This document shows, piece by piece, positions 3,691-35,554 of a stretch of DNA of 64,000 bases. The stretch is from Antedon mediterranea (taxonomy: Eukaryota; Animalia; Echinodermata). Within the stretch, counting starts at the first letter, position 1; each line of letters opens with the position of its first letter. The translations under genes were made by a program, and so were the position numbers. The stretch covers positions 31,245,648 to 31,309,647 of the forward strand of contig NC_092673.1 of NCBI RefSeq assembly GCF_964355755.1, read 5' to 3'. The notes under the pieces were generated by a model. It saw only the letters and a list, made by a program, of their open reading frames with translations, was not told the DNA's origin and searched no databases.

Positions 3691-4039
3691 AGGCTATCTG
3701 AAGAATCAAAACCATGAGTATTGGGATAGTTGACTTATACAAAATAAATGTTGTACTGTGAACGTATAAGTAACAAGGTGAATAATGACTGCTATATACA
3801 TATTATTACAAAGAAATACTTATTATAGAACTACCCATACCTTTTATAAATGTCCTACAGAACTTATGCCTCTTTTTTACAAGGTAACCCTAGTCAAAGG
3901 TGATTAATATTGCATTGTATATATTTACAAAACTATAACTCACATAACTATAACACTCTGTGTATGGAAGGACATTTGTATTAAAAATTTAAAATATTAC
4001 TGTATTTGAGTAACTATTATCCCAAGCTCGGGTATAATA

Positions 4040-14600: not shown

Positions 14601-17600
14601 GTAGTTTTAATCACTTTCCATAGAATAAAAATATTTTTATTTTTATTTATTTCCAAACCCAACCAACAGCAAAATAAATTCGCCAATAACAGGAGGGTAA
14701 ACACAAAACGGATACAAATACATGAACAATGCCAATAAAATATAATGTTTTCACTTATAAATAAATGGTTAAATCCAACCCAAAAGCGATTGGTTTTGCT
14801 TTAAATTATAGATTTTCAGGTAAATAACATTTCTTCCAATTAAATCCAATTTTTTTAAACTATTATGTGACATCAAAAAGGCAGATTCAACAAACATTTT
14901 TTTAAGAATTATTTTTTATTATAGGGGACAATAATCATTAAATAGAATAAAATTCAGTCCTGAGCCATCACTTCCCATTAGTGGATTTTTTTTTTCTTAG
15001 CATTTAAAACATTATAAATAAATTTGTAGTCAAATTCAATAGAGTTGACTTTATTAAGCCTATACTGACTTATCTCAAATTATAATAATAATGAATAATG
15101 TGATGTGGATATCAATCCAATATATACTGGATTTTGTTTTAATAAACCGACCCACGCATTGTGTTGTGTACTAATTTATAACCTGACCTATCTTTTTCTT
15201 ATTTGCTCCCACTATATATGTATACTGTACAATTAATGAAATATTTTAATAATAATTAAGAAATCATCTAATAATGCAAAAACAAAAATAAAATTATGAA
15301 TTTAAAAACATAGAAAGAAAATCCAAACAAGGATTTTTAAATTATAAATGAATAAAGTGTAACATTTTAATTTATTAAAGAACAACGCTGTGTAATATAT
15401 TCATTAAACTGCTTTACCACACAATCCAATAATTAATGTTTTATTACAACATTTATATAAACTGATTGTCATGACAACCACATAATAGATTACTGCAATC
15501 AACAAACGTATCGATTGTTACAATTTTTTGTGCGAGTGGGTTGGTTTGTGTGTACTATATGTAGAAGAAATCTTATTAATAACACTGTATGGAAATTAGT
15601 AATTCTTAAAAGTAATAATTATCGTATTTATTATTATTATTAATAATAATAAGACAATATTACAAATATAGATCTTTTGAAAAATATACAAATTGACTAC
15701 TATACTCAGTATTTGGAATTATGAATAATATAGCAAGTGGACACTCAATGCATTATTTTGTTACGCACTAACAGGGAACACGATACATTTAAATACACAC
15801 TGATCCTATTAGGTATCCATTGTTATGGATTAGTAACCATGGTAACGATAGTAACAGTCTATTCATAACTCATAGCAACACTATACACTAAAGTGTAATC
15901 AAAATTATTACCCGAATAAAGGCAATCATGTTTTTGACAAGTTAAGAGTCTTCCTATAAAGAAAGCATTAAATTTATTTTATTTCATTTTTTTTTATTGT
16001 AAATAACTTTTTATCATTGTCTAAAATCAATTGTATTATTTTACGAGTAGTCCTGTGAGGTATACCTCAATTATTTATATTATAAACTGAAACTGAAATT
16101 TAAGTATTTTTTTGCTTTAATTAAATTACATTTTTTTCAGGTAAATCATTTTTTTTCCAACCTAGTTTTTGGTCAAAGTGAATAACTATTACGTGACAAT
16201 AAAATGGCATATCCAACAAAAAAAATGTGAAAAAAAATTGTTAGGGGACAATCTTTAAATACTATTTAAAATGAAAATTGATTGTGTTTAGTGTTATTAA
16301 AGTATTATCGTGAATTTGAATGTACTATACAAAATAAAATACATTATATTTATTTACATTTTTCCTATGGAACGGACCGGACCTTCTTGTATAAGGTACT
16401 GTAGACAATTACAAACACCCTGGCTTTGTTAGTTGTTTGCGATAGCTCACCATAGCTACCATTTACACTAATTACCCTATGTGACGTGAGTGCATTGTGT
16501 TTGGCTTTCAACTATTGATCCTGAGAATAATAAGACTTGAAGTAGCTATACAAGGGCTGGGCTGTGATGTCAATGTCGTACTACTCATTGTAAATGTATA
16601 AAAGGCTTCCTTGAAAAGCTATTAAAGTATGGAAGGCTGTTTAAGTCAAATTAATGTTGTAATGATGGTGTACTATTACTAAATTAGTCCTATTTTTTGT
16701 ATGAATTAGTTTTTTAATACAGTCTATGGAAGGCTGTTTAAGTCAAATTAATGTTACTAGATGGCACGCTCGCTTCGCTCGCGTACCATCTAGGGGTGCT
16801 CACAGATGGTTCTCGAATACAGTAGAATCCACGGACGGGGACTTTTTTGGGACACTAAACAAAAACGGAAGTGTCCCCCTAATTGGGGTATTCAGAAATA
16901 GAGACAACAAAACCAATACTGGATTCCATAAAGGACAATTAATTTATGTGGATTAAAGAAATTAGGGAGAAATGGAAATGTATGTACGGGAATTGGGCGA
17001 CACGTGGTGGTGGTGATGGAACCACAGTAATAAAGTTGATTGTATTTATATATTATAAGAACCAAACTAAATAAATAGACCTAGACATTCTGCGAAATGA
17101 AAATCGGAAATGCAAGCTCCTATTCAGTGAAAAATTAAACTGTAGTCTACCTAAATATTTAGGGCAAATCATCGGTTGTGGTGTTGAAATTCCTGTAAAC
17201 ATTTGTGTGAACCAAACTGGGTCGAATTTCTGTCATGAGTACTGATTTGTTGGCCTGTGATTTATGACGCCTAAGGGATCTATCTAGACTTATTTTTTAG
17301 AATAATGTACGTACCTGTCAGATACAATTGTCTTGTGTCGTATAATAAATAAGTACTGTAATAGTTACTGAAGTTACTATTACAATCTCGTCAATGAAAA
17401 CACGAAAATGTATATGCACTTACTTATGAAAACGTATACAGCATTATACTCAGTTATTGAAACAGTAGGTTTAAAAGTTTCGTTTGTCTGTAAAATGATG
17501 TAATCAAGCTGTTTACATGAGTCTTAATTTATAAGCACATCAATAATAAAATAGTTTATCTATCCTGTAATTGGCGAGATTATGGTCGCTGTTGAATGAA

Positions 17601-20600
17601 ATAAAGCCAATCGGTATCATATTTGTACAGAAACGTTTTCGCGGCCGAAGGGTGTAACCTAAATTCGTTGTATTATCGTCAAGAACTAACTGTAACTAAA
17701 CTTACATAGAAAGTAGGGTATCATAAATTTGGCCTTAGCACTCGGGGGAGTGGCTAAGATGAAGTCCGTGGGACTACTAAATATAAATTGTAATGAACCT
17801 CGAGGGACATAAATAGGAATATTTCATGTTTCATTATCAATGTATAATAAATGGAAACTGTTTACCGATTCAAATAATAGAAATTGGTTTTTAACATTTT
17901 CCGAACCTATTGCAAGTTTATTCTCAAAGGGCCCATATATTTACCTACCGTATGTGTTAAACCAAGGGCTCATAAATTTACCTACAGTACTTGTGTTAAA
18001 CCAAACTCTGGCAGACTGAGAGATTGGGATGTTCCATTCATCGCAAATCAATACATTTGTATAATCGTATATTAAATCTATCAAAATAGTATTTTTTAAA
18101 GAAAATCGGCCTGTCTTCAACATTATGATGGTGTACTCTAGCAATCTATCAAAATAGTATTTTTTAAAGAAAATCGGCCTGTCTTCAACATTATGATGGT
18201 GTACTCTAGCTGTTCAACCGGTTTTCAGCTATTAAAAACAATTATCGTAGGAGGAGATAGGAAAATGCGAAGCCTCCTCGCTATGTAACATTAGGGTTGA
18301 GGGATGGGAAAGCGGATAGGTACAAAGAGGAACAATTTTTTAATATATTCTTTATCCACTGAGTAACGAAACATTTTGTTCATGTTTTATAGGCCTATAA
18401 ATAATATACCTCTAAATACAGTAGGCCTAAAACATTTGCGATTTAATACTTTGTTAAAACTGTCACTGTCATAATCAATTGAAATATTAAAGTACATGTC
18501 ACGATACACCACTACGACGTTTATATTTTTGGTAATTATTAATTAATACAAACGTTGAGAAGGAACTGTCAGTATAAAGTTTATTTGTATATCTAACAGT
18601 AGAGCCTATCCACAGTCTCAGTAATAAAGTTTATTTGTATATATTTTTATATTACATCTAACAGTACGAACATTCACAGTAAGAAATGTTCGATTCAAAT
18701 GAAAAATAGTTAATAGGTATTTACAGTATTGTCAAAGTATTGCAAGTTTATTCTCAAAGGGCCCATATATTTACCTACCGTATGTGTTCAAGGGCTCATA
18801 AATTTACCTACAGTACTTGTGTTAAACCAAACTCTGGCAGACTGAGAGATTGGGATGTTCCATTCATCGCAAATCAATACATTTGTATAATCGTATATTA
18901 AATCTATCAAAATAGTATTTTTTAAAGAAAATCGGCCTGTCTTCAACATTATGATGGTGTACTCTAGCTGTTCAACCGGTTTTCAGCTATTAAAAACAAT
19001 TATCGTAGGAGGAGATAGAAAAATGCGAAGCCTCCTCGCATTTTTTTGGCGGGTATTTTTCAAGACGGACATCCATTAGACAGTGTATACCACGATCGGA
19101 AAACACCCCTATTTGGGGCAAATCGTTTAACCTAAATTCGTTTTAATCGTCAATAACTAATTATTTAACTCAATTTAATTAGTAAACAGGGTTACATCAG
19201 GCGGTTAAAATCAGTACCGAAAGTACGAACCAACTTTACATACCATCGAGTGAAAATTCTAGAAGTAAGGCGCGATTTACCGAATTTTGCCCTTACGTAA
19301 ATTTATATATAGATAATGATGGTGTACTATTACTAAATTAGTCCTATGTCCTTTATGAATTAGTTTTAGGTTTTTTAATACAGTCTATGGAAGGCTGGTT
19401 AAGTCAAATTAAATATCATGATGGTGTTGGTGGAATATTCGTAAAATTAGTTTTTAATTTAAAGTCTACAGTATGGAAGGCTGACTAAGACAAATGCCAT
19501 AATGACAGTGTACTATCCTGAATCAGTCATTTACATTATTGGTTAGGTTTTCTGAATCTAAATATCTACTTTTTCTATGAGCCTATATAATAAGTCAAAT
19601 TAAATATCATAATGATGAAATCATATCCTATGTATTTGTTTATTTTTTATTAAGTGATAGAAGGTTGGTCGAGGTAAATGTCATCCACTAGAAAGAACAA
19701 AGAACGAGAATTATCCACGGTACAGTAATAATTAATGTGTTTATTTCTGGTTTCCCAGAACACATAATCATTTTTTTAACTGTGTGTGGGGCTGAAATAA
19801 GGTGGGACACTGGAAAAGAGGTGGGATCAGAGATGGTCCCTAAATAGAAACATAATTAGGAATTTTCCTTACCTGTGTTGTGGGACATTGGAACTGAAAT
19901 GAGGTGTGGCCACACATGGTCCATAGTTAGAAACATAATTAGGAATTTTCTTTACCTGTGTTGTGGGACATTGGAACTGAAATGAGGTGTGGCCACACAT
20001 GGTCCCTAGTTAGAAACATAAACAGGAATTTTCTTTACCTGTGTTGTGGGACATTGGAACTGAAACGTGGCGCTACCACTTGCACACTGCAACATGTCAA
20101 AGAAAAATAAATACGGCTTGTCACTGCAAAAAAAAATGTTAAAATAGTTTTAATTCAAAGATTATCTAATAGATGCAGAAAAGAAATGGTAAATTCATTA
20201 CATTTAAGAAATTACATCAGAAACAATACGAAAAAAGTCATTGAGATTGTCCAAAACAAAACATGATTTTGGATTATTATTTTTAAGAAAAAACTTTCTT
20301 CTTCTTAAATTCCAAATATGAAGAAGGTAATACATCCTAACCACACAGCATCATACAAATTATAGGGCTCAATCAATGATTAGTATGTTACAATTATTAG
20401 TAATATAGTAAGTTCGAGTCTCATCATGAAATTGGAAAAAAAATTATTATTAGAACAATATTTTCTTTTTGCAAAGAGGTTTTAGGTTTTTGTTTCCGTG
20501 AATTTGCTAAGTTCTCATCTAAGTCTCATCATGAAAACTTAATTAGAAAAACAATTATTATTCTTAGGTTTTAGGTGTTTGTCTCTGTGCGTGGTGTTGA

Positions 20601-22476
20601 TCGTATTGTAAGTAAAATAACAAGAATTTTCATCACTTACCTAACATCCCCAGTGTATCCACATATTTGACCTTTGGAATCTGTGGGGTACACGAGTTTG
20701 CGTGGGTCACCATCACTCCATCCTACAGTGCAAAAAAGTTATTTATCATTCCATGAAAGAAATATCCACTAAAAAAAAAGCCTATTAAAGAATATTCATG
20801 ATATTGATTTTTTCCTCTGGAATTATATCTATACTCTCGAAAATGATTTATGTTGTTTTTTTTTCCTTTTTTATAAACCATACACATAACAAAATTTATT
20901 AAGTCTATTTTTTATGGTTCACCAAAAAGAAAAAAGCACAAACATATGTCTAGCTATTATATACTGTTTCAAATAATTGATGGTGTTGTTTTGTACACTT
21001 ATGCTATACAATGCTATCTTGGAGTTGTTATTATTATACAGTATACAGTACACTCGAAATCTTGTTAAATACTGATAATACTATTTACTTATCAAACACA
21101 GAACTCTACTAACTGTGTAAAGTATTTAGCAATGTTTCCTACTTTAAATACTACAATAAAACAAAATGTCCCATTAGTAGTGTGTTCTCTGAATTTAAAG
21201 GGTTGGTAATAATTCACATCACATCACTTACAACATATGTTATACAGTATGATGTGACATCATTTTTTCTTAATTTTATTGTCCAGTTTATTCTGTTTTT
21301 GTAATTTTATATTGTTATTATATATATTATATATTTATATTGTTTCAAGATGCACCAACTTCTGTGTATGTATGTATTTTATACCCCTCATTTGATTTAA
21401 AGGTAAGTTTCCCTTTAAAATGGATTTTAGTTAGTTAATGTGATGGAAAAGACAATATAGGCAATATCTTATCAATTCAAATCACAAAATAATTAAGAAA
21501 TGTTAATTACAAATAACAAGGGCAATACTTTGTGATTACTAATTTACTTATTTATTACTGGTATTAGTATTTTAGTTAGTTAATGTGATAGAAAAGACAA
21601 TAAAAGGTAGGCAATAGGCCAATAATGACAATAGGCACTTAATGTGTGACGTACTCACTGGCCTACTGTATACAAATGTTATAATCACCGTCACAATCAA
21701 TACAGTTCCTTGACACTGACTTGCTATCAAGGTTGATCTAATCACGTTCTTATTTAGTTCAGCAACATTCAGGCTCGTCAATTAAGATGTAGACGAAATA
21801 CTAATTTTTTATACTTACCAATATATCCAGTTATAAACATTCCAACAATAAACGCTACAAAAATAATACAACAGATAACATCTGTACAGCTCCTAAAAAC
21901 AATAAAATACAGAAAAAACATTGGTTAAAAATACGGAATAACTATGTTATGTTAATTCAATATTATAACGTTACATTCAATAATTGTACATACCTGTTCT
22001 GAATTGGTCCTTTAAAATTTGGATCATACTTTGTTGGTTTCCCTAAAATGAAAACAAAAATATGAAAGAATTAGTAGGGCCTACATTTATAAATAATTCT
22101 GTTGTAGGCCTACTTCTATTTCTATATAATTAATATCTCTTCCGATCATAAAAAACAAATATCAATATCTCATCATTATCATTAATGCTTCAAACTTATT
22201 ATTTAAATGCATGCATTGTCTAAGCCTGATAAAATAAAATAACAATAGGTAGTGCATAATAATTGTACACTTTCTAGGCCCAGTTTGTCAAAAACAAAGC
22301 AGATGGTCATTGGTTATCAGTGAAGAAATCAAACCACCGTCTTCCCATGGTTTGCCTTCTTTTGTTGGCCTAGCCTTTCCTACAAAAACCACCTGCACTT
22401 GTTGGTTCATTCATAATATATACTTACCAAATTTGCTGTTATTATTATCTTCATCATCAACTTTATTAGATCCCAT
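5661..22476 (-). CDS. SLC44A4: Choline transporter-like protein (SLC44A2/A4/A5 group; 20 exons, 729 aa)
   Basis: Exons 22428-22476, 21994-22042, 21819-21892, 20641-20722, 20039-20123, 14347-14499, 14022-14094, 12323-12461, 12131-12214, 11605-11717, 11271-11393, 10015-10114, 9507-9599, 9269-9365, 8470-8711, 7620-7818, 7296-7369, 6581-6746, 6106-6190, 5661-5770 (2190 nt, open). Motifs [91 protein letters not shown]. Probably co-orthologous to vertebrate A2/A4/A5, so the symbol is approximate. Confidence 0.95.
6370..6552. mobile_element. MITE family A copy
   Basis: TIR agctctgtctacactatcaaac ... gtttgatagtatagacagagct; internal 20-bp repeats caaatatggtagtgatatgc. Confidence 0.8.
6795..7210. repeat. 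~18-bp minisatellite (gactagttttgacaagtt)n
   Basis: Tandem array filling most of SLC44 intron 17. Confidence 0.95.
7929..8070. mobile_element. MITE family A copy
   Basis: aagttctgtctacactatcaaact ... agtttggtagtttaaacagagttt imperfect TIRs. Confidence 0.75.
9366..9506 (-). other. U12-type (minor spliceosome) GT-AG intron in the SLC44 gene
   Basis: 5' splice site GTATCCTTT, branch site TCCTTGAC about 10 nt before the AG, no strong polypyrimidine tract; flanking exons join in frame (AIAL-YLAS). Confidence 0.9.
10211..10535. mobile_element. Kolobok-type MITE, degenerate copy
   Basis: Homologous to 10795-11135. Confidence 0.65.
10795..11135. mobile_element. Kolobok-type MITE with TTAA target duplication
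   Basis: ttaa|agatgtatgtccccc ... ggggacaatacatct|ttaa; further copies at about 10211, 14530, 16100 and 22915. Confidence 0.8.
11805..12122 (+). mobile_element. tRNA-derived SINE
   Basis: A-box-like tgaccgaatgg, B-box-like gtttcgaggccc, SINE-body motif taaaccgtaggtcc..gtgcaccttaaacaacc, A-rich 3' end. Confidence 0.7.
12750..13996. repeat. ~120-bp AT-rich satellite with variable (TAA)n and shorter subunits
   Basis: Repeated aaagtaaaagagccagaaagaagtttatgatgtttatgttaaatctaaaagcaatttactgaaaaaatgctgtggttatcagtggaga in SLC44 intron 7. Confidence 0.95.
14530..14940. mobile_element. Kolobok-type MITE, degenerate copy
   Basis: Homologous to 10795-11135; ends ggggacaataatcattaa. Confidence 0.6.
16757..19313 (-). 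mobile_element. Non-autonomous Helitron in SLC44 intron 5
   Basis: Minus strand begins A|TCTATATATA (19313) and ends with a GC-rich hairpin then CTAG|T (16757). No TSD; the joined flanks rebuild the neighbouring repeat unit aatgtt[a/g]taatgatggtgtactattact. Internal duplication 17908-18283 / 18738-19039. Confidence 0.85.
19845..20065. repeat. 83-bp tandem repeat duplicating the 3' end and donor site of SLC44 exon 5
   Basis: ttacctgtgttgtgggacattggaactgaaa occurs three times, with donors at 20038, 19955 and 19872. Confidence 0.9.
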
Positions 22477-22914: not shown

Positions 22915-23167
22915 GTATTGTCCCCCTGAAAAAATAATGTGTTTAAAATGTTTTGTTGAATATGCCATGTTATGTCACATATTAGGTATCCACTTTAATC
23001 AAAAATTGGATCGAATTTGGTTGAATTTATTTATTTTGCCATTTAAATTAAAAGAGAAAACATTATTTTGTTGTTTTATCGAAGTGATTAACTTTATTGT
23101 GAAATGGCCTATTCAAAGTTTTAATTAATCTTCATTTTCATGTTATTGGGGGACAATACATCATTAA
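22915..23167. mobile_element. Kolobok-type MITE, inverted copy upstream of SLC44
   Basis: gtattgtccccctgaaaaaataa ... ggggacaatacatcattaa; reverse complement of the family at 10795. Confidence 0.7.
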
Positions 23168-23524
23168 AAGGATTTTGAGGCATCAGAGTAGAATAAAATA
23201 AAAAGCCCGTTTGGTGGCGTCCGTTGCGGTCTTTAATCACGGGCGGACCTACTTCATTATTTGGAGTTGCTGCATTAATTTGATGAATAGATTTAAAATA
23301 ATCTAGTAACGATACTGACTCGAAATTATGTCCATGTAAAATGTTTTATGATATAGAACAGTAGGCCTAATCTCTGGTTTTCAGAGATATGTAGCCTTAA
23401 TAAGCAAGGCTATGTTGCCTTGATAAAATTAATTAAATTTCCTCCCCATCATTTCACCCAACCATCAGCACAGAACTTGTGTAAAGCAAGGGTAGGTGTA
23501 GTAGAAAAATATCGTTTGGAAAGA

Positions 23525-24118
23525 GTATAAAGTAACTTTTATTATGAGTACTACATTAAATCTGGAAAACGTATTTCACAACGCTAAACAAAAATGTATC
23601 TTGTCGTTCGCTTCCTCTTGTACCACCGTCCACCGCACTGTCGCTCAGTCGTAGATGAACAGGCTCAGACCCCATAAGCCACAACAACCGTGAGGCAGAA
23701 TAATTCACGCCCCTTCGGTTTTGTAGTTCTGGGGGTCCTCAAGCCTTCTCACACACCCTCACTAGCACCCATGAACAGGGTGACTGCGGAATGCATACGG
23801 GTGGAGCCGACTCTCGGACCGAAAAAAAAAAGCGTGTTGTTTGCGAGTAGTTGTTACTCGGCAAATAAGGGGACGAAATCGCTCAAAAACGTTTCGTTTT
23901 ACCATGAAAGAGTATGTTACATACCTCCATGGTTTTTACCCTGAAGTCGATGTTACTTGAATGGCCCGTTGTTGGGATCGTAATAGGTTACCCTCATAGA
24001 GGGTCTGGCTGTACCTCTTGGTGTCAACATCGCTCCTGAAAAGCAGCTAAATGTCCAGAGGCGCGTGTGTTTCCACAGCCAGTTTAGTTGACTACTAAAC
24101 GAAGTGAGGCAATTAAAT
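23525..24118 (-). ncRNA. Putative structured Pol II ncRNA, copy 1 of an unrecognised family
   Basis: TATAAAA at 24140-24146, Inr TCATT about 28 nt downstream, series of hairpins 23636-24082, AATAAA at 23538-23543; paralogous to 25095-25669 and 26555-27050; no conserved ORF. Confidence 0.65.
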
Positions 24119-24139
24119 GATTAAGTCTGAACCCTGTCC

Positions 24140-24263
24140 TTTTATATCTTTGGTAATCGGTAGTGCAACGTAGCGTTACTGATTGCACAACCATTTCACC
24201 ATTAAATGTCCCTGGATAGTGTGTAGTAGAATGTTCGCGAAAATGAGTCAACATTTCCCTTTC
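24140..24263 (-). promoter_or_regulatory. Stress-type promoter of ncRNA copy 1
   Basis: TATA 24140-24146; C/EBP-like ATTGCACAA 24182-24190; perfect HSE aGAAtgTTCgcGAAa 24228-24242; AP-1 TGAGTCA 24244-24250; ISRE-like GAAAggGAAA 24254-24263. Confidence 0.7.
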
Positions 24264-24321
24264 CGATTTAACAAAATAGGCCTAATCATAATTTGAATTC
24301 CGTACAGTTTTCTCGTCACTA

Positions 24322-24790
24322 TTAAGCTTGGTTCCCACTACGACGCAACGCAAGGACGTAGACGCAACGCAAACCAGTTGACCAATGACAAGGGACCGTC
24401 AAATAAATCCCTCGCTTGTGATTGGTCAAATCCCTTACGTTGCGTTAAGTGGTTGTGTTCGTAGACATCAAATAAACGTACCTATTGTGTGTGTTTAAGC
24501 TTTAGTTCCCACTCGGACGTAAGCGCAACGTAAAGCGTGGTTCCCACTAGAACGCAACGCAGCGACGTATTGACGCAAAGTGATTGCGTAATCACAAGTG
24601 GGAACCGACGACGCAACAGTGCTGCAAACATCGCGGGTTTGATTTCACGCAACACAATTATTAAGGGCATGTTATGTTACGTAGGTTGCGTTGCTAGTGG
24701 TAACAAAGCTTAAGTAACTTGACCAATCACAAGCGATGGATTATCCGAACTGTCGCTTGCCATAGGTCAATTCGGTTGCGTTGCGCTTTA
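24322..24790. mobile_element. Nested or adjacent palindromic MITEs (AAGCTT..TTCCCACT family)
   Basis: taagcttggttcccact.., inner taagctttagttcccact (24497) ... agtggtaacaaagctta (24712), cgcaacgca/tgcgttgcg repeats. Confidence 0.7.
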
Positions 24791-25094
24791 ACGATAGATA
24801 TAATTTTTATTTATTAAAAATATAGTTTGAATTGTTTTAAGTTTCTTTTTTGTGTACACAATCATGCAGGACTTGTATTGTAAACAGTCATTGTATTTAT
24901 TATGATTGAATGTATATGAACGATGGGATATTAATGGCAAACCTTGGTACGGCGGGGACATCCCTATAAACGGCGCCGTAATTACATCATTTGACAAACT
25001 AAGCACCACACCACCACTGCCATTTATTGATTTAACGATTATATCCTTTCCACCCTAAGTTGTGTAAGGAGTAGGCCTACTATTAATATGGAAA

Positions 25095-25669
25095 TCAATG
25101 TTATTCGTTTATTTGTATTCGTTTAGAAAACGTATTTTACAAAGCACGCTACGTACTATTTCCATTTTCTTATTCATTATGTTAGGTCGGGGGTACCGGA
25201 CTGTCGCTCAGTCGTAGATGAAGAGGCTCAGATCCCATAAGCTACAACAACCGTGAGGCAGAATAATTCACGCCCCTTCGGTTTTGTAGTTCTGGGGGTC
25301 CTCAAGCCTTTCACACCCTCGCTAGCACCCATGAAAAGGTGACTGCGCGTTGCGTTCGGGTGTAGCCGACTCTCGGACCGAAAGAAAATGCGTGTTGTTG
25401 CGAGTAGTTACTCGGCAAATGAAGGGGGACGAAATCGTTCAAAAACGTTTCGTTTTACCATGAAAAGTATTGTTACATACCTCCATGGTTTTTACCCTTG
25501 AGTCGATGTTATTTGAATGGCCCGTTGTTGGGATCGTAGGTTACCCTCATAGAGGGTCTGGCTGTACCTCTTGGTGTCAACATCGCTCCTGAAAAGCAGC
25601 TAAATGTCCACGAGGCGCGTGTGTTTCCACAGCCAGTTTGGTTGTTTTAACGAAGGGAAGCATTGAAAT
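25095..25669 (-). ncRNA. Putative structured Pol II ncRNA, copy 2
   Basis: Close tandem paralogue of copy 1; TATAAAA 25689-25695, Inr TCATT at about 25669, AATAAA 25108-25113; many differences fall in loops or preserve pairing. Confidence 0.65.
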
Positions 25670-25688
25670 GATAAGTTTAAGCCTTCCT

Positions 25689-25817
25689 TTTTATAGCTTC
25701 AGTATCGGAGTCATGCAACGTAGCATTAACGATTGCTAAACAATTTCATCATTAAATATCCCTGGATAGTTTTGTAGAATGTTCGCGAAAATGAGTCAAT
25801 GATTGACATTTCCTTTC
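25689..25817 (-). promoter_or_regulatory. Stress-type promoter of ncRNA copy 2
   Basis: TATA 25689-25695; HSE aGAAtgTTCgcGAAa 25776-25790; AP-1 TGAGTCA 25792-25798; GAAAgGAAA 25809-25817. Confidence 0.7.
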
Positions 25818-26437
25818 CGATTCAATAATATAATTTGGATAATTCAAATGTACACTTCCTATTACATAATAGGCTAGTTCGTAGGTACACTATTACCTAT
25901 ACATACTATAGCTAAAAAATAATCGTAAACTATTAAACAAATAATTAGAATTAGAATTCAATTTAATAATGTACATCATTCAGATACACACAATTAAGTG
26001 CAAATCGAAAAAATCGTATACTACATAGAGTAAAGTAATCAAGATTTGTGTGCTTTTTTGGCATAGGAAGCCTACTTCCGATTATTCACGGTCGCATAAA
26101 ACTATGTGTTAGGGGTAAAGTACAGCATATGTATAATTATATAGTTGCATGTGGGCCATATTTAAATCCACGGATATCCGTGATATAGCCTGCAATTACA
26201 TACATCACACGTGAGTGATCGACGTCCGAAGCCCCTTCCCTCCCGTCAGCACCAAACTCGAAGTTCGAGCACGTATTATATTCGCTAACATCAATATAGG
26301 CCTACTAGGACTATAATTGCAACATACCTTTACTAAAAATGTAGAATAGTATAGGCTAGTAAATTTAATACTAGGCCTAGGCCTATATAGAACTTCTAAA
26401 GTGCAGACGTAGCCTAGTTAGTAAAATGTTAATATGG

Positions 26438-26531
26438 ATTCTAGAACAATCTATTATCGTGTACTTAGCGATGTCACCTATGACGTAATCAGGAAGCATT
26501 ACGCAATAAGTCACGTTCGGAAACTATATAA
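26438..26531 (+). promoter_or_regulatory. Promoter of ncRNA copy 3
   Basis: HSE-like aTTCtaGAAcaATCt 26438-26452; CRE-like TGACGTAA 26481-26488; C/EBP ATTACGCAAT 26498-26507; TATATAA 26525-26531. Confidence 0.65.
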
Positions 26532-26554
26532 GCAGACAATCACAACGCTGTAGA

Positions 26555-27050
26555 TCAAACTGAAACTCATCGTTAAAACAAAGATTTCTACTGGCTGGTA
26601 ACATTCCAAGCCTCGCGGGCTTTGCTGCTTTCCAGGAGCGATGACACCAAGAGGTACAGCCAGACAACAACCCTCTACGAGGGTTATCTTTCATAGACGT
26701 AACCGTGGTTTCAAGTAACATCTTGAAGGGCGGAACGGAACGCTTTTGAGCGTTTCGGCCCCCGGCTGGCTGAGCAAGAAAGGGAGGAGAGACTCGAGAT
26801 TGCTAGCATAAACGGATCCAGGGTACTATTCGCATGGATCACCAACTTTTCCGGTCCCAGGGTCGCGTGTCACCCACTTCTCCGCGCAGTCACCCTTTAA
26901 GGGTGCTAGCGGGGGTGGCCGTGGCCCCAGGACCCCCAATATTACAATGCATGATGAGCGTATATTGTTCTGCTTCATCGGTACTGTAATTAATGGGGGT
27001 TTTAAAATCATCATTTCAAGAATTGAAAATCGCCGATCCGAACTGAAGAA
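26555..27050 (+). ncRNA. Putative structured Pol II ncRNA, divergent copy 3 (3' end interrupted by a transposon)
   Basis: Shares CTGGCTG, GCTGCTTTYCAGGAGCGATG, ACACCAAGAGGTACAGCCAGAC, CCCTCTAYGAGGGT, TTCAAGTAACATC, GCAGTCACCC..GGGTGCTAG and AGGACCCCCA..ATGGG with copies 1/2 in the same order; oriented divergently from copy 2. Confidence 0.65.
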
Positions 27051-29269
27051 TATAGACCGGGCGCTCGGAAGATTTATTCATGTGAAAAGATACAAAAGGT
27101 TTGATGATGTAGTTAGGTGCGTATTAGGGTGAGATGCAATATTCGACATTGCTGCCGGGTCACAGCCTGTACATGGGGCCTGTGGGGATCATAACATAGG
27201 GGGGGGGGGGTAAAAATGCATTTATTCATGTTAAGCGATACAAGGATAAACTTTTTTGGATATCATTCGCAGTGGGCTACTAATGATTACATCACCAATG
27301 ACAGCAACTTTATCCTGTACGGGGCGCCAAACAGCAACGCCCAAATGGGTTTATTCATGTGAAGCGATACAAGGTTGAATCTTTTTTTAATGGCAGCAGT
27401 ACATATTGGGGATGACAAAAACACCAATGACAGCAACTTTATCCTGTACATAAGCTCAGACAGCAGCCCTAAAGGTCCGCAGTTTCCCCCTATTCGGCTA
27501 TATACTCGGCGCGTATGTCGTCTTATGGCGTTCAGCTGAGTTAGAAATACGCGATACGGACTCGGACTGACAATAAATACACAGTAGAATGATAAAACAA
27601 TAAATAAAGAGAGCAGTTGTTTGCTGTACCAAATCATCAAACATCAAACTCTTAGGAACTCGCCCAAAATGGGTTTATCCATGAAGTATGAATCATTTAA
27701 AAAAAAAGTTGTTTTTTTTTAACTTTATCCGGTACACAGCAGCTCAAATGCCCGAGGCTCCATTCGTGATCAACAATGTCGATAATACAAACACATTCAC
27801 GATAACGAGTGACTTTTATTTAATTGAAATATATCTTTATTTTGGAATAATAAATAACACCAACAAAAACACTTAAAATAACCAACAGCAGATTTGTATT
27901 TTAGGGTAACATTTTGAACAATCAATTTTATTTCAAAATCATTATTTCGATCAAAATAATATAATTTAAGAATATTTTTCAGATAAACTAAATAATTACA
28001 CTCATAATGATCGACACCGGTACCTATTATTGTACATTATTATTATAACTCGATTTAAATATTGTTTTAATTACACACTAGACACTATTATAGTGATATG
28101 TCTATATGAAAAAAGGCAACGAAATCTAAATTTGCAAGTGACATTTTTTAACATAATATAACATAATTGTAAAGTAAATAATAGTTCGAATTCAACATAA
28201 TCACTTAGAGAATTGGTAAGGTATAGATTAGACTATCGATTGCACACTATTACTGTATTTTTAACTCAATTTAAATTTAAAAAAGTAACCGTTTTCATGT
28301 GAATTAGACTGATAAAAACCAACAAAAAACTTAATCTGCCAACATTTTAAACATCGTTACTTGTCCATAATGGATCGACTACTGTACCGATGGATTACTG
28401 CACATTGTTTTACTTTAACTGAACCAAAGTCAAACTTTTAATTGTTACTGTACTAACATTAGACAGTGATATCTGATAAAAGGCAACATTAATTAATATT
28501 AATAATACTGAACCAAATTAAATATCGTTACTTATCCACAATGGATCGACTACTGTATTGATTATTGCACATTATTTTACTAACTAACATAAGAAAGTTA
28601 TATCTGATAAAACGCAACAAACTGAATCGAATTAAATATCGTTACTTATCCATAATGGATCGACTACTGTATTGATTACTGCACATTATTTTACTATAAC
28701 TGCCCAAGTCAAATTTAAAATTGTTACTGTACTAACATTAGACAGTGATATCTGCAACATACTCAGGACCAAATTAAATATCGTTACTTATCCACAATGG
28801 ATCGACTACTGTATTGATTATTGCACATTATTTTTCTCTAACTGAACCCAGGTCGAATACACTGTAAAAGCACAATTGTGCAAAGACATCGAGGTTACTG
28901 GCTGTATGCATTAAATAACTGAATATTGTTTTACACATTATTTTACTATAACTGCCCAAGTCAAATTTAAAATTGTTACATTAATAACACTGGACCAAAT
29001 TAAATATCGTTACTTATCTCTAACTGAACCCAGGTCGAATATTTTACATGCAGTGTAACTACCGACACACTGTAAAAGCACAATTGAGCAAAGACATCGA
29101 GGTTACTGGCTGTATGCATTAAATAACTAAATATTGTACATTCCTCATATTCCATTACTAGCTGAACAGAATACACGATATAATAAAACCAATAGGGGCT
29201 ATTGGATTTCTTTTTACATGATTTGTGACAGCGTCATTTATAAATTTGATTATATCACACTGTAATGAT

Positions 29270-29877
29270 ATTGGATTTTACCGCAAAGGCAAGTCAATCC
29301 CATTTACATATTATTTAGTGAAGGACAAGAAACATGTTGCTGCATTAAAATCGCTTTGTGGTGACAGGGTGGACAAACCCGCAGTCACTGCCTATGTATG
29401 CAAGATATATGGGTTTAAAAGCATGAACAGTATTAATGAGGCCAGGTACCAATCGTTTCGCAAAATGACAACTGGAAAGAAGAAATTCAAGAAGATCAAC
29501 TGTTCGTCATTGCCACCATGTGAAATCACAATCACCCAGCATCTGTTGAGGGCAAATTATGTATCTATTATGTGGAGACACGCTCATACTCCTCAGCCAA
29601 CACAAAACCTACAGTGACCCATTAAACTATGGATGGGTTGATAATGGTGATGGAAGGTATGTACCTAAATGGTTTAATAAAAAATGCTCTACCAGATACG
29701 TTGACTAGTGATCCACACTCGGAACAAAGTGCTGAATCAAACACAGTTCTTGACGATACTGATGCAGGAATATTGGAACAAAGTGATGATGAAGAACTTG
29801 AAATAATAGATTTTGAAGCTGAAATCGATGATGACCAACCTTGGAGTGATGACAGTGAAAGTGACGATGACGAATAG
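29270..29877 (+). pseudogene. Academ transposase C-terminal fragment (disrupted)
   Basis: FYRKGK..YVCKIYG..SINEARYQSF..LPPC..QHLLRANYVSIMW..P.NYGW..YVPKWF then an acidic tail; in-frame stop at 29615 and a frameshift; N-terminus missing. Confidence 0.75.
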
Positions 29878-31986
29878 ATAAACTCAAAAGATTAAGCATT
29901 ACGGCTGATTTAATAGTTTTTAATCGTTTACATAAAACATTTGAGAGTTTTGAAGTAAATATTGTATAATATTATATCAAATGTAAATACTGAACTATTT
30001 GATCCACAGATAGTTGGCAAGAAGAATCCAGTATCATTACAGTGTGATATAATCAGATTTATAAATGACGCTGTCACAAATCATGTAAAAAGAAATCCAA
30101 TAGCCCCTATTGGTTTTATTATATCGTGTATTCTGTTTAGCTAGTAACAATGGAATATGATGAATGTACAATATTCAGTTATTTAATGCATACAGCCAGT
30201 AACCTCGATGTCTTTGCACAATTGTGCTTTTACAGTGTATTCGACCTGGGTTCAGTTAGAGAAAAATAATGTGCAATAATCAATACAGTAGTCGATCCAT
30301 TGTGGATAAGTAACGATATTTAATTTGGTCCAGTATTATTAATGTTGCCTTTTATCAGATATCACTGTATAATGTTAGTACAGTAACAATTTTAAATTTG
30401 AATTGGGCAGTTAAAGTAAAATAATGTACAATAATCAATACAGTAGTCGATCCATTGTGGATAAGTAACGATATTTAATTTGGTCCAGTATTATTAATGT
30501 TGCCTTTTATCAGCTATCACTGTATAATGTTAGTACAGTAACAATTTTAAATTTGAATTGGGCAGTTAAAGTAAAATAATGTGCAATAATCGATACAGTA
30601 GTCGATCCATTATGGATAAGTAACGATATTTAATTTGGTCCTGACTGAGTATGTTGCAATTTATCAGATATCACTGTATAATGTTAGTACAGTAACAATT
30701 TTAAATTTGAATTGGGCAGTTAAAGTAAAATAATGTACAATAATCAATACAGTAGTCGATCCATTGTGGATAAGTAACGATATTTAATTTGGTCCAGTAT
30801 TATTAATGTTGCCTTTTATCAGCTATCACTGTATAATGTTAGTACAGTAACAATTTTAAATTTGAATTGGGCAGTTAAAGTAAAATAATGTGCAATAATC
30901 GATACAGTAGTCGATCCATTATGGATAAGTAACGATATTTAATTTGGTCCTGACTGAGTATGTTGCATTTTATCAGATATCACTGTATAATGTTAGTACA
31001 GTAACAATTTTAAATTTGACTAGGGCAGTTATAGTAAAATAATGTGCAATAATCAATACAGTAGTCGATCCATTGTGGATAAGTAACGATATTTAATTTG
31101 GTTCAGTATTATTAATATTAATTAATGTTGCCTTTTATCAGATATCACTGTCTAATGTTAGTACAGTAACAATTACAAATTTGACTTTGTTTCAGTTAAA
31201 GTAAAACAATGAGCAGTAATCAATACAGTAGTCGATCCATTATGGACAAGTAACGATGTTTAAAATGTTGGCAGATTAAGTTATTTGTTGGTTTTTATCA
31301 GTCTAATTCACATGAAAACGGTTACTTTTTTAAAATTTAAATTGAGTTAAAAATACAGTAATAGTGTGCAATCGATAGTCTAATCTATACCTTACCAATT
31401 CTCTAAGTGATTATGTTGAATTCGAACTATTATTTACTTTACTATTATGTTATGTTATGTTAAAAAATGTTGCAAATTTAGATTTCGTTGCCTTTTTTCA
31501 TATAGACATATCACTAAGTGTCTAGTGTGTAATTAAAACAATATTTAAATCGAGTTATAATAATAATGTACAATAATCGGTACCGGTGTCGATCATTATG
31601 AGTGTAATTATTTAGTTTATCTGAAAAATATTCTTAAATTATATTATTTTGATCGAAATAATGATTTTGATATAATACTGATTGTTCAAAATGTTACCCT
31701 AAAATACAAATCTGCTGTTGGTTATTTTAAGTGTTTTTGTTGGTATTATTTATTATTCCAAAATAAAGATATACCCTGTAATTATTTCAATTATAAAATA
31801 AAAGTCACTCGTTATCGTGAATGTGTGGGCATTTGAGCTGCTGTGTACCGGATAAAGTGAAAAAAAAAACAACATTTTTTCAAAAATGATTACACACTTC
31901 ATGGATAAACCCATTTTGGGCGAGTTCCTAAGAGTTTGATGTTTGATGATTTGGCACAGGAAACAACTGCTCTCTTTATTTATTGT

Positions 31987-32469
31987 CATCATGAATGTGT
32001 CACAGAGGGTGCAGTACCAGGTAGGCTGCATAGCTTTTAAAGCCATGAACAATATTGCCCCTCGATACATCACCCAACGATTTTCCACTGTTCCGATACA
32101 CTCTATGAGGACTAGGGCTGCTTCCAGGGGAGACTTACTGGTACCCAAAGTTAAATTGGAATGTTTCCGGCGCTCTTTTATTTATTCTGCTTGTATTTTA
32201 TATAATGTATTACCTTCTGTTTTGAAAGAATGTACCAATATTAACTCGTTTAAATTTAATTTTAAAAAAACACATTTTATCGTAATTGTTTAATTGTATA
32301 TAATAGTTTTAAATTTAAATGTATATAGTAGATTCGTATTAGTTAAGTATAGTTTTATATATTTTGTCATTTTTAAGAGGGCCCCTGAATATCAGCTGGC
32401 CTGCGGGTTCAGCTGGAAGGGTTACCCTCTATAAATAAAGTTGAAATAAAAATAAAATAAATAAATAAA
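31987..32469 (+). mobile_element. 5'-truncated CR1/L2-type LINE inserted in the right TIR
   Basis: ORF2 C-terminus FKAMNNIAPRYI..HSMRTR..RRSFIYSACILYNVLP..SFK, 3' stem-loop agaggg..ccctct, (AAATA)n tail, flanking attgt duplication; absent from the left arm. Confidence 0.85.
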
Positions 32470-35400
32470 ATTGTTTTAGCATTCTACTGTGTATTTATTG
32501 TCAGTCCGAGTACGTATTTCTAACTCAGCTGAACGCTATTAGACGACATACGCGCCGAGTATATAGCCGAATAGGTGGAAACTGCGGACCTTTAGGGCTG
32601 CTGTCTGAGCTTATGTACAGGATAAAGTTGCTGTCATTGGTGTTTTTGTCATCCCCAATATATACTGCTGCCATTAAAAAAAGATTCAACCTTGTATCGT
32701 GCTGTTTGGCGCCCCGTACAGGATAAAGTTGCTGTCATTGGTGATGTAATCATTAGTAGCCCACTGCGAATGATATCCAAAAAAGTTTATCCTTGTATCG
32801 CTTCACATAAATAAATGCATTTTTACCCCCCTATGTTATGATCCCCACAGGCCCTATGTACAGGCTGTGACCCGGCAGCAATGTCGAATATTGTTTCTCG
32901 CCCTAATACGCACCTAACTACATCATCAAACCTTTTGTATCTTTTCACATGAATAAATCTTCCGGGCGCCCGGTCTTATAATAGCCGGTTAAGAAAAATG
33001 GGAACGTTCGTGTTGTGTGCGTTTAGAGATTTTACATTCACATCACCAATGTCCATCCAGAATTTTGAGAGGGGGAGAGGATGGTCGAAATGTAATAAGC
33101 GCTAAATTTAAAACAATCCGATCATTTTCATTGCCAGGTTCTCAATTTGGAGGTACTGTATATCCGCCTCATCATGCAGTTTTCTAAATATTAATCTATA
33201 TATGTTATCTTAGACAGATTTTAAGTTTTAACTTGGATTTACTTTCGAGATTAATTTGTACATTGACATTATTAAAAGTGAGTGATACGCCTGAATTTTC
33301 GCAATTATCATAATTATACAGATTCCGTAAATTGAAAAAAAAATGTAGCGTTATTTGCTTTTCTTTTTCATGATTAGGCCTACGTCTCCGTTTCGATCAC
33401 CCTCTACTTAATAACATGTCTCGATAACTTAAAAACTCTTATTACACGATAAAAAAGATTATAATAGGCCTACTTATACATTTCGAACTATCTCAAGTCT
33501 TCTGGCTGCTCATATAATTGCTTTATTACGAAGAAAATTATATTACATTAATTTGTGACGAAATGTGTTTTCACCAACCATAAATGTACATAACTCGATC
33601 GCCGCTAATTGGTAGACTACGCATACTGTATATATACACTATTTTTGGTACTTGTAATGAGCCGTTGGGGCGTGTGTGAAGACAGTGAAACTTTTATTGG
33701 CGCGCTTTTCCAAAATAGACACTCAGCTACTATAGGCGGGCCTATTTTCACCTCTTACCGTGCCTATATACACCCTCTCTAAAATATCACTAAAAACATT
33801 TATATGCTCATATCCAAGAATAACAATAACATTATTTTAAATATCATTTTTATTAAAAAGCAGAATGTAGGCCTATGTAAGGGGAAAAAATACCGGGCGT
33901 ATCCTTTAAATAGAAATACAGTATAACGTTTTCGTCTGATGAATATAAATAAAAAATACACAGCATCACAATACTGAAACTGTATTGAAAATATCAATAT
34001 CACATTGTTACGTGCACTGTGTTCAATGGGCTTAACTACAATAATATCTATCGATTAAAGTTTTGCCTTAGAAAAAACAGTTCGTAAAATACATTAAACT
34101 GAAACGACTACTCACTTTGTGGGTTTTTATTACTATAGGCCTTTTGTTGTAGATCTTTTATTTTTCTCCAACTCATGTTTTACTGACGGTTTATTTTCAA
34201 AATAAACCCAAACGGTTTTATTTTTACAAAACTCTTTTTTTTCAAATACTGTATTTAAAATTGAATTAAATATAGAAGAGCCTACAATCTTATTTTATAT
34301 GCATATAGGCCTATATGAAGAATGAAGTACATATATATTGAAGAATATAATACTGTGTATATTAAAAGGTTTATTATTCTAATAAATTATGTATTTATTC
34401 ATTATTCAAACTACACAGATGTCCCTCTCAGAGGGACTCTATGCAGGCATAGCATTGTCACTGACAACCGAAAATAATTAAATATTGGTTAACAAAACAA
34501 ACATTTCTTTAGTTACTTGATTAGAAATGTCACTAACTCGTTGAGAGCGAATATTCTGTAGCAATTAGTAAGATGCAAGATCATTTTCTTGTAGTCATCA
34601 ATATCATTGATTTTGTTGCTATATTTGTATTATAATGTATTCACTATTGATGGCTATTTGATACAGTGCCATTAAAGTATATGCTCTATTGTTCAGCATC
34701 ATAAACAATAAATTTGGTGAGTGGTATTGTAATACACAGACCATTATAGAAAGATATTGAACTGAGACATAATAGACGAGGTCTGTCTACATTTGCTTTT
34801 GAAAATGATGATAACAATTTTAAAAATCTTTGAAATGTTGGGCCAGGAACACTATTGGATAAAAGATAACAAAGTAATACAAAATACTTAGAAAGATTGT
34901 GGTGAAATACTATGGCCGGAATTCATGGTAAACAAATTCAGCATTTGAAGTTTGAAGTTACCAAGGAAGAAAATACAATAGGTATAACAGAGATGCTTCA
35001 GTGAAGAAGTTGGTGTTTTGAGAAAACAATGTTCAGATTCAAGGACAAAAACTGGAGAAAATTAACAGTTTCAGTAACCAACCAATCTTCTTATGCTGAA
35101 GACATTTGGTCTTTGGTAGAGGACCAGTTTGTAATCTTTTTGGATGGTTTCAATACAACCGGATATCAATACTACTTGTGATAGGCAGTATTGCAATGCT
35201 CAAAGAAGATGATGAAGATGAATAAAAAATAGGAGACGTTTTCTAAAGGAAATTTTCAAGATATACACATTGGTGGAAAAGATGTGAAAGGACAAGGTAA
35301 GATTTCAATAACGTTTAATCCTTAAAAACGAGATAGAAACTTGTGAATGCATCCAAGAAAGTTTCACCATCAAGACTCAAATTTTGGTCATCTCTGTTTT

Positions 35401-35554
35401 GATTTGAACAATTATTAAAATGCAATACATTTGCAACAGTGAGAATGATAAAATATTCAAGAATGAGAAAGTTTCAATGAAGACTCAAATCTATTAAATA
35501 TATAAATTCTCAATTCGACCAGTTTACACAACTAAAAAAATGAAATGATTTGCG

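What the first reader, a model, noticed from the sequence alone, without database searches (positions are those of the whole stretch)
23525..27050. Cluster of three paralogous, promoter-equipped, highly structured non-coding RNA genes of no family I recognise
Seen: two tandem minus-strand copies and one divergent plus-strand copy, GC-richer than their surroundings. Each starts about 26-32 nt after a TATA box, and copies 1/2 have AATAAA about 90 nt after the core. Copy 3 is very diverged yet keeps the same ordered helices: (a) CTGGCTG..CAGCCAG closing a conserved domain; (b) CCCTC-TAY-GAGGG; (c) CGAAACG..CGATTTCG vs CGGAACGC..GCGTTTCG with a TTTTGA loop; (d) GGTCC-ga-GAGTC..GGCTT-ga-GGACC vs GGTCC-ca-GGGTC..GGCCC-ca-GGACC; (e) GCAGTCACCY-variable loop-GGGTGCTAG; (f) a long CCCCA..TGGG hairpin. 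The larger indels between copies are themselves self-contained hairpins. No ORF is shared. Inference: a Pol II, polyadenylated RNA family under selection for its fold. I do not recognise it as telomerase RNA, 7SK, RNase P/MRP, SRP, a snRNA or U3.
Basis: partly seen in the sequence, partly recalled or inferred. Interest (0 to 1): 0.9.

Follow-up and report, generated by a model that had tools for sequence, protein, structure and literature searches.

The report
Feather-star folded RNA with tiny ORF
A feather-star genome carries three related, uncatalogued small genes that share a strongly conserved predicted RNA fold and a 24-25-codon reading frame behind heat-shock-type promoter motifs, and they likely make a stress-induced RNA that works through its shape rather than its peptide.

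Summary
The three copies are real: two on the minus strand (c1 ~24118-23540, c2 ~25669-25110) and one on the plus strand (c3 from ~26557). Each folds far better than its shuffles (z -4.1 to -4.7). c1 and c2 are 91-97% identical in the core and 53-68% in the flanks. A model built from c1/c2 alone finds 41 of its 49 pairs kept in c3. A strict covariation test is not significant with three sequences. Rfam has no match, and no homologue was reachable. First, all copies share a 24-25-codon ORF that starts inside the most conserved domain, with in-frame indels and a conserved stop; the peptide is conserved mainly where the RNA pairs. Second, all promoters carry a heat-shock-element motif ~90 nt before TATA, plus ATF/CEBP-like sites. 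Inside the ORF lies a Roquin/Regnase-type UCYRYGA triloop hairpin. The host is a crinoid echinoderm. Best reading: a likely stress-induced, polyadenylated, structured RNA whose short ORF is translated as a switch, analogous but not homologous to Drosophila hsr-omega-3. Transcription, induction, translation and binding partners are all untested.

The parts
24229..24241 (-). c1 heat-shock-element motif (exact TTCnnGAAnnTTC), 95 nt before TATA; AP-1-like TGACTCA at 24244-24250
   Evidence: consensus recalled
24193..24201 (-). c1 CARE/ATF4-like site, one mismatch from TGATGxAAx
   Evidence: consensus from PMC5175342
24140..24146 (-). c1 TATA box; predicted start site ~24118
23525..24118 (-). copy 1, predicted transcript (~590 nt; both ends inferred from motifs)
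24005..24082 (-). c1 domain A: CUGGCUG/CAGCCAG stem, 12-nt asymmetric loop, conserved top hairpin; holds the AUG
23990..24004 (-). c1 hairpin B: 6-bp stem with UAU triloop (UCYRYGA core)
23953..24030 (-). c1 short ORF, 25 codons plus stop
23901..23933 (-). hairpin present in c1/c2 only (39-nt indel against c3)
23873..23897 (-). c1 hairpin C, UUUG loop
23734..23820 (-). c1 domain D, including element E (23761-23787: two single-nucleotide bulges, variable loop)
23671..23733 (-). c1 long hairpin F
23538..23581 (-). c1 3' block shared with c2 (23565-23581) inside an otherwise diverged tail, and AATAAA (23538-23543)
25777..25789 (-). c2 heat-shock-element motif (exact), 94 nt before TATA; AP-1-like site at 25792-25798
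25743..25751 (-). c2 CARE/ATF4-like site, exact match to TGATGxAAx
25689..25695 (-). c2 TATA box; predicted start site ~25669
25095..25669 (-). copy 2, predicted transcript (A 25558-25636, B 25543-25557, C 25429-25453, D 25297-25379, F 25234-25296, AATAAA 25108-25113)
25509..25583 (-). c2 short ORF, 24 codons plus stop
26439..26451 (+). c3 heat-shock-element motif (one mismatch), 86 nt before TATA
26481..26506 (+). c3 ATF/CEBP-like sites (TGACGTAAT, TTACGCAA)
   Evidence: consensus recalled
26525..26531 (+). c3 TATA box; predicted start site ~26557
26557..27052 (+). copy 3, predicted transcript up to the inserted element (A 26591-26663, B 26669-26685, C 26736-26757, c3-variable region 26768-26849, D 26853-26934, F 26935-26997); 3' end unknown
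26641..26718 (+). c3 short ORF, 25 codons plus stop

Best explanation
These are three paralogous feather-star genes with a conserved predicted RNA fold and a shared 24-25-codon reading frame, likely switched on by stress and likely working as a folded RNA whose 5' domain is opened by ribosomes translating that short frame. Shown from sequence: the copies, the promoter motifs, the fold under constraint, the shared ORF and the UCYRYGA triloop inside it. Inferred steps: (1) HSF and ATF4/CEBP-type factors drive Pol II transcription of a capped, single-exon RNA of ~0.5-0.6 kb, polyadenylated in c1/c2. (2) A scanning ribosome starts at the AUG on the 3' strand of domain A and must unwind A and hairpin B before stopping at the conserved UUC-AAR-UAA. 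(3) The peptide is a by-product; when translation is active A and B are repeatedly melted, and when initiation falls under stress they stay folded and present protein-binding surfaces (B to a Roquin/Regnase-type Y-R-Y triloop reader). (4) Domains C-F lie past the stop, stay folded, and act as the constant scaffold. The RNA would thus couple translation status to its own turnover or to sequestering an RNA-binding protein. My odds: functional structured RNA gene family 0.85; stress-inducible 0.6; ORF translated 0.6; Roquin/Regnase as partner 0.25.
For: Fold: z -4.1 to -4.7. With a 200-nt span limit all three score about -5, while random substitution at 17% gives mean -0.85 (0 of 14 reach -5, extreme -4.3) and at 34% mean -0.3 (0 of 14). 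A covariance model from c1/c2 only scores c3 at 70.6 bits against 48.4 for the sequence-only model (bits not strictly comparable). 41 of 49 pairs are kept in all three copies, all 29 of 29 in D, E and the base of F, with 3 double changes and 9 of 500 shuffles as high (alignment fitted to the structure). Hand-picked table, c2 against c3: 75 pairs, 65 same, 3 one-sided, 7 double, 0 broken. G-U pairs favour the TATA-driven strand. c1/c2 identity: core 91-97%, HSE-to-TATA 85%, flanks, leader and tail 53-68%. A contig of run X1 over c3 has 10 substitutions, 8 of them in the 82-nt c3-variable region of 279 nt (P=0.0014; borders set by the paralogue alignment) and 2 at paired positions (P=0.035). ORF: first AUG after TATA in c1 and c3, both at +116; three indels of 3, 6 and 3 nt; equal-frame diverged segment; conserved stop. 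4 of 18 c1/c2 indels outside the ORF are multiples of 3, so three in-frame indels have P~0.011-0.037. Promoter: 2 of the 4 exact three-unit HSE motifs in 64 kb are in c1/c2, and c3 has a one-mismatch site at a like distance; motif order HSE, ATF-like, GCAAT, ACGTT, TATA is kept in c3. Hairpin B: the only 3 of 35 UCYRYGA matches in the window with a stem of 6 or more pairs; consensus from PMC13732794. Precedent for non-productive translation of a stress RNA: PMC2115576 and PMC2115608 abstracts.
Against: The strict covariation test fails: with sequence-only alignments, changed pairs are kept no more often than chance (P 0.12-0.86 in 12 of 12 c1/c2-versus-c3 comparisons), and the RNAalifold covariation term is about zero. 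8 of 20 pairs of the upper F helix break in c3 in the c1/c2 register. Only three sequences from one locus, two of them near-identical. The ORF is a post-hoc find; its AUG and first 7 shared codons lie in invariant paired sequence with no synonymous change, so their conservation needs no translation. c2 has an extra AUG about 5 nt from the predicted cap. Known Roquin/Regnase elements are described in 3' UTRs, whereas B is inside the ORF; the three B hairpins are one event. Promoter motifs are short and the ATF-like pattern occurs 27 times in the window. c3 has no nearby poly(A) signal. One c3 substitution in X1 changes an ORF residue (26691).
Confidence: 0.45

Rival explanations
1. A pure non-coding structured RNA: the ORF is an accident of conserved paired sequence, and the RNA acts as a scaffold or decoy without being translated.
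For: AUG and the shared N-terminal codons are in invariant helices with no synonymous change; the stop block extends past the stop codon; the AUG is buried in a -26 to -29 kcal/mol domain.
Against: Three in-frame indels plus an equal-frame diverged segment inside the ORF, against 4 of 18 in-frame indels outside; no stop in the diverged segment; first AUG at the same distance from TATA in c1 and c3; a capped, polyadenylated RNA would normally be scanned (general knowledge).
Confidence: 0.25
2. A micropeptide mRNA: the 24-25-residue peptide is the product, and the folds are stability, localisation or translation-control elements of its mRNA.
For: Frame, length and C-terminal FK-stop are kept, with a synonymous change at the last Lys; single exon with TATA and AATAAA.
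Against: The peptide matches mainly where the RNA pairs (TPRGTAR, PS.RV) and diverges in the unpaired segment; no Pfam family above cut-off; no peptide relatives in two protein searches; ~400 nt of conserved structure is large for the purpose.
Confidence: 0.15
3. Remnants of a mobile or viral element (solo LTR, SINE, captured viral IRES or UTR) that bring their own promoter, poly(A) signal and structured leader.
For: Self-contained promoter-to-AATAAA unit of ~760 bp in tandem and inverted copies, in a repeat-rich region.
Against: No sharp shared ends; similarity fades in the flanks while the core stays 91-97%. In DNA-like runs X2/X4 the cores are covered by a few long contigs like the unique flanks, whereas neighbouring repeats pile up more than 100 contigs with loose ends (depth is not a copy number). 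No tRNA head, no Rfam IRES match, and three viral-contig scans gave only chance or no hits.
Confidence: 0.08
4. Promoter or 5' exon units serving the neighbouring SLC44A choline-transporter gene (alternative first exon with a uORF, or enhancer RNAs).
For: c1 and c2 lie on the same strand, 1.1 kb upstream of the SLC44A start codon at 22476.
Against: No consensus splice donor in any copy; c1/c2 have their own AATAAA; c3 points away yet keeps every feature; the annotated protein's first coding exon is already accounted for.
Confidence: 0.07

Closest known systems
Drosophila hsr-omega cytoplasmic RNA (omega 3) with ORF-omega
   Same: Heat-shock-type, polyadenylated RNA with one tiny conserved ORF, where the act of translation rather than the peptide was proposed to matter and turnover depends on translation (PMC2115576, PMC2115608, abstracts). 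ORF-omega length of about 23-27 codons is recalled, not from a call.
   Different: omega 3 is spliced and comes from a locus with long nuclear isoforms; here the units look single-exon, are ~0.5-0.6 kb, occur in three paralogues and carry an ornate conserved fold. No sequence comparison was possible; treat as analogy only.
Roquin/Regnase-1 constitutive decay element (CDE)
   Same: Hairpin B has the UCYRYGA core with a Y-R-Y triloop on a 6-7-bp stem in all copies.
   Different: CDEs are described in 3' UTRs of protein-coding mRNAs; B lies inside a short ORF of a mostly non-coding RNA. Binding is untested.
Echinoderm/metazoan telomerase RNA
   Same: Pol II-type, multi-domain structured RNA of similar size in the same phylum.
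   Different: No template of 7 or more nt of CCCTAA repeats; no pseudoknot or H/ACA end evident; has AATAAA and an ORF.
HSF1-induced lncRNAs (SatIII, TERRA, SINE RNAs, eRNAs, NEAT1)
   Same: Non-coding targets of heat-shock-element promoters (PMC9032817, passages).
   Different: Those are repeat-derived or very long nuclear RNAs; none is a compact multi-helix RNA with a short ORF.
Type 6 (dicistrovirus intergenic) IRES
   Same: Contains CAGCC, and c1/c2 have AUUU, motifs seen in such IRESs (CAGCC from PMC13273307; AUUU recalled).
   Different: CAGCC is paired in a stem here, not an apical loop; no pseudoknots found; no Rfam match; no downstream main ORF.

Membership tests
Any Rfam 15 family (SRP, RNase P/MRP, snRNAs, U3, 7SK, vertebrate TR, IRESs, ribozymes, miRNAs) | Covariance-model match at gathering score | tested here: not met
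   0 hits in 64 kb; at E<=10 over 23000-27500 three hits, best E 4.1, all far below gathering.
Metazoan telomerase RNA | Template complementary to TTAGGG repeats (8 nt in apple snail, 11 in human; PMC8480181) | tested here: not met
   No run of 7 or 8 nt of CCCTAA repeats in 3 of 3 copies.
Metazoan telomerase RNA | Template-pseudoknot and 3' box H/ACA domain | tested here: inconclusive
   No high-probability pseudoknot helix among helices shared by the copies; no conserved H box/ACA layout seen; no echinoderm TR model was available.
7SK RNA | Pol III transcript without internal T runs; paired GAUC motifs in the 5' stem (recalled) | tested here: not met
   Internal T4-T10 runs in all copies; no GAUC pair at a shared position.
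Sm snRNA, C/D snoRNA, RNase P/MRP, hammerhead, histone stem-loop, IRE | Short consensus motifs (recalled) at a shared position | tested here: not met
   None is shared by the three copies.
hsr-omega-3-like translated stress RNA (functional class) | One small conserved ORF in an otherwise non-coding RNA | tested here: met
   24-25-codon ORF shared by 3 of 3 copies.
hsr-omega-3-like translated stress RNA (functional class) | Stress induction | not testable with these tools
   HSE and ATF/CEBP-like motifs only.
hsr-omega-3-like translated stress RNA (functional class) | ORF translated; RNA level changes when translation is blocked | not testable with these tools
   No ribosome-profiling or raw RNA reads available.
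hsr-omega-3-like translated stress RNA (functional class) | Sequence homology to hsr-omega | not tested
   No hsr-omega sequence was available from a tool; homology is not claimed.
Roquin/Regnase CDE | UCYRYGA core with Y-R-Y triloop on a stem | tested here: met
Roquin/Regnase CDE | Location in a 3' UTR | tested here: not met
   B spans codons ~10-14 of the short ORF.
Roquin/Regnase CDE | Protein binding and decay activity | not testable with these tools
   Needs binding and reporter assays.
High-copy SINE / MITE / solo LTR | Many dispersed copies, sharp ends, target-site duplications, tRNA head | tested here: not met
   3 copies in 64 kb; no contig pile-up at 85% likeness; fading ends; no tRNA. 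More diverged dispersed copies are not excluded (no genome).
pri-miRNA with microRNA-encoded peptide | ~35-bp stem with single-stranded base and one strongly conserved arm (recalled) | tested here: inconclusive
   Hairpin F is 63 nt, abuts domain D directly and both arms diverge in c3; no small-RNA data.

The most novel reading that the evidence does not exclude
A previously unknown class of animal stress RNA: a compact, ornately folded Pol II transcript that senses translation through a tiny ORF threaded through its most conserved domain. Ribosome passage would toggle a Roquin/Regnase-type hairpin, and possibly a 5'-leader:hairpin-F long-range pairing, making it a ribosome-operated switch that exposes or hides a decay-factor decoy during stress, perhaps conserved across echinoderms.
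Probability: 0.2. Interest if true: 0.85.

Novelty: new variant of a known kind. Interest (0 to 1): 0.62.

Why it matters
Large animal RNAs with a conserved multi-helix fold are rare outside the housekeeping set, and none of this kind turned up in Rfam or in ten literature searches. If it is stress-induced and translated, it offers a compact, three-paralogue test case for an old open idea from hsr-omega: that translating a tiny ORF, not the peptide, is the function. The defined helices, AUG and promoter motifs make that directly testable by reporter mutagenesis.

Tried and rejected
No whole genome is held, so no genome-wide copy search. Expression: no RNA holder listed. Run X1 is only guessed to be RNA; its contigs cover 23806-24041 and 26661-26939 and leave 9 of 30 bins uncovered, but repeats are deeply covered too, contig depth cannot rank genes, and I could not test X1 on the neighbouring exons, so this is not counted as evidence of transcription. 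Homologue searches: metagenome scan 1 hit, a bacterial coding sequence; viral scans 15, 0 and 0 hits, all 15 limited to the pattern; prokaryote genomes 1 hit limited to 22 nt; peptide alignment 0 of 267 candidates; representative search 1 hit, P0001, a repeat protein matched by summed repeats. These collections hold almost no animal genomes, so the blanks say little. Earlier scan notes: nothing related. Strict conditional covariation: not significant. Long-range leader:F pairing: cognate duplexes beat cross-copy ones (-17.9/-16.6/-10.0 against -5.7 to -8.7), but it ranks 2nd of 1903 window pairs behind an apparent chance pair, family-wise P=0.06, pair probability ~0: a lead only. Original c3 tail beyond the inserted element: similarity to c1/c2 tails not above background (655 and 332 of 830 windows score as well). 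Opposite-strand reading (GNRA loop on the antisense of domain A): rejected because G-U pairs fit the sense strand. Splicing into SLC44A: no consensus donor. Literature: ten searches listed no paper on this RNA; the library lacks most subscription papers and I read no supplements, where transcript lists could hold it.
Full report
Setting. The window is AT-rich animal DNA (GC 0.32). The nearest gene is an SLC44A choline-transporter-like gene on the minus strand, with coding exons from 22476 down to 5664. One of its exons matches a feather-star protein at 100% over 68 residues, another crinoid at 87% and sea stars at 74%, so the host is a crinoid echinoderm. The cluster lies 1.1 kb upstream of that gene's start codon.

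The observation. Three paralogues exist: c1 and c2 on the minus strand (88% identical over 573 nt) and c3 on the plus strand, about 66% identical to them over aligned columns. A profile of the three finds no fourth copy in the window. Cores are GC 0.49-0.54. Rfam gives nothing at gathering score and three chance-level hits at E<=10.

The fold. Each copy folds better than all 100 of its shuffles, z -4.07, -4.16 and -4.67. Random substitution of c2 or c3 at 17% or 34% removes this (means -0.85 and -0.3; 0 of 14 reach the observed -5 in either set; no indels simulated, fixed SD), so both lineages have kept stability against drift. Between c1 and c2 the core is 91-97% identical, the HSE-to-TATA segment 85%, and leader, tail and flanks 53-68%, which fits purifying selection or gene conversion. 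A covariance model of domains D-F built from c1/c2 only scores c3 at 70.6 bits, against 48.4 without structure. On that structure-fitted alignment 41 of 49 pairs hold in all copies, 3 by double change (9 of 500 shuffles as high), and the 8 failures are all in upper hairpin F, where c3 pairs in another register. My hand-picked helix table gives 65 same, 3 one-sided, 7 double and 0 broken of 75 pairs for c2 against c3 (the c1 row for hairpin C2 there is off by one and is not used). Against this: with sequence-only alignments, paired positions are kept more than average (P 0.0006-0.02), but pairs that did change are not rescued more than chance (P 0.12-0.86; 12 comparisons), and the RNAalifold covariation term is about zero. 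Three sequences cannot establish covariation. A contig from run X1 (allele or further paralogue) differs from c3 at 10 sites, 8 in the c3-variable region and 2 at paired positions, again sparing the shared core.

An AUG on the 3' strand of domain A opens a 25-, 24- and 25-codon frame in c1, c2 and c3, ending at a shared UUC-AAR-UAA. It is the first AUG after TATA in c1 and c3, both at +116; c2 has one more about 5 nt from the predicted cap. Indels inside are 3, 6 and 3 nt; outside, 4 of 18 c1/c2 indels are multiples of three, giving P~0.011-0.037 before allowing for a post-hoc find. The peptides agree mainly where the RNA pairs and diverge in the unpaired stretch, with no synonymous change in the 7 shared N-terminal codons. 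That pattern says the RNA constrains the sequence and translation constrains only the frame.

c1 and c2 have an exact three-unit heat-shock-element motif 94-95 nt before TATA (2 of 4 exact sites in 64 kb), and c3 a one-mismatch site at 86 nt (consensus recalled). c2 has an exact TGATGxAAx CARE (PMC5175342, passages), c1 a one-mismatch version, c3 ATF/CEBP-like sites; the order of motifs is kept in c3 although the promoter barely aligns. Such short motifs suggest, but do not show, stress induction.

Hairpin B has the UCYRYGA core and Y-R-Y triloop of Roquin/Regnase targets (PMC13732794, passages); its three copies are the only 3 of 35 such cores in the window on a stem of 6 or more pairs. It lies within the ORF, not in a 3' UTR, so it fails the usual positional definition; a translating ribosome would melt it (inference).

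Mechanism. I infer a capped RNA of ~0.5-0.6 kb induced by HSF and bZIP factors. Ribosomes translating the short ORF unwind domains A and B; when initiation drops in stress these stay folded and bind protein, while domains C-F past the stop remain a constant scaffold. The closest precedent is Drosophila hsr-omega-3, a stress-inducible polyadenylated RNA whose one conserved tiny ORF is translated without product accumulation and whose turnover depends on translation (PMC2115576 and PMC2115608; abstracts only). This is an analogy, not homology. Confidence in the whole chain is 0.45; in a functional structured RNA gene family 0.85.

Copy 3's end. A ~5.9-kb element with long terminal inverted repeats and an apparent 3-bp target duplication starts at ~27053, 55 nt past hairpin F. 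The nearest AATAAA is inside it at 27572. c3 may have a longer or damaged 3' end.

Known families. Telomerase RNA fails on the template (features from PMC8480181, passages). 7SK, snRNA, snoRNA, RNase P/MRP, hammerhead and histone-stem-loop motifs (recalled) are not shared. Type 6 IRES motifs are not in their defining loops (PMC13273307, passages). HSF1-driven lncRNAs reviewed in PMC9032817 (passages) are of other kinds. PMC9065632 (passages) added nothing specific; PMC6294493 and other titles were seen only in search listings. A high-copy mobile element is unlikely: in runs X2 and X4 the cores are covered by a few long contigs while adjacent repeats pile up more than 100.

Limits. No homologue outside this locus was reachable, as the collections are almost all microbial or viral. 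Expression was not shown. Ten paper searches found no description; no supplements were read.

Verdict. A real, uncatalogued, structure-constrained RNA gene family with a shared short ORF and stress-type promoter motifs; new variant of a known kind; interest 0.62.

Noticed in passing
window 24322-24785: Very high-copy, internally palindromic MITE-like repeat between c1 and c2 (85-nt inverted arms; more than 100 contigs with loose ends at 24322/24324 and 24531).
   Followed up: partly
window 27053-32976: ~5.9-kb element with long terminal inverted repeats full of subrepeats, apparent TAT target duplication, and two internal ORF fragments (29222-29614, 29626-29874) without Pfam match. Inserted just behind c3.
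   Followed up: partly
window 5664-22476 (-): SLC44A choline-transporter-like gene, about 20 coding exons; the end of the exon at ~20036 is followed by two short degenerate repeats of itself (19777-19994).
   Followed up: partly
window 855-2001 (-): Exons of a MORN-repeat gene (Pfam MORN hit; MORN5-like by recall).
   Followed up: no
window 23953-23985 (-) and 21993-22046 (-): The c1/c2 peptide ends in YDPNNGPFK and the neighbouring SLC44A exon 2 encodes [10 protein letters not shown]; c3 lacks the likeness. Probably coincidence.
   Followed up: no
window 24097-24118 with 23703-23733 (-); 25648-25669 with 25266-25296 (-); 26557-26575 with 26935-26965 (+): The 5' leader of each copy mimics the 3' arm of hairpin F and pairs best with its own copy's F 5' arm; family-wise P=0.06. 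Possible 5'-3' switch.
   Followed up: yes
window 23565-23581 and the matching stretch of c2 near 25125-25142 (-): A 17-nt block kept between c1 and c2, 10-20 nt before AATAAA, inside an otherwise diverged tail; possible 3'-end processing element.
   Followed up: no
window 24036-24047 (-), 26624-26639 (+): The invariant top hairpin of domain A has a 6-position stem with a G-G mismatch and a UUYC loop, reminiscent of a histone stem-loop but failing its consensus (consensus recalled).
   Followed up: partly
window 4032-4839, 12758-13997, 35166-36712, 58548-60040: Long tandem minisatellite arrays; the last two are related and strongly purine-skewed.
   Followed up: no
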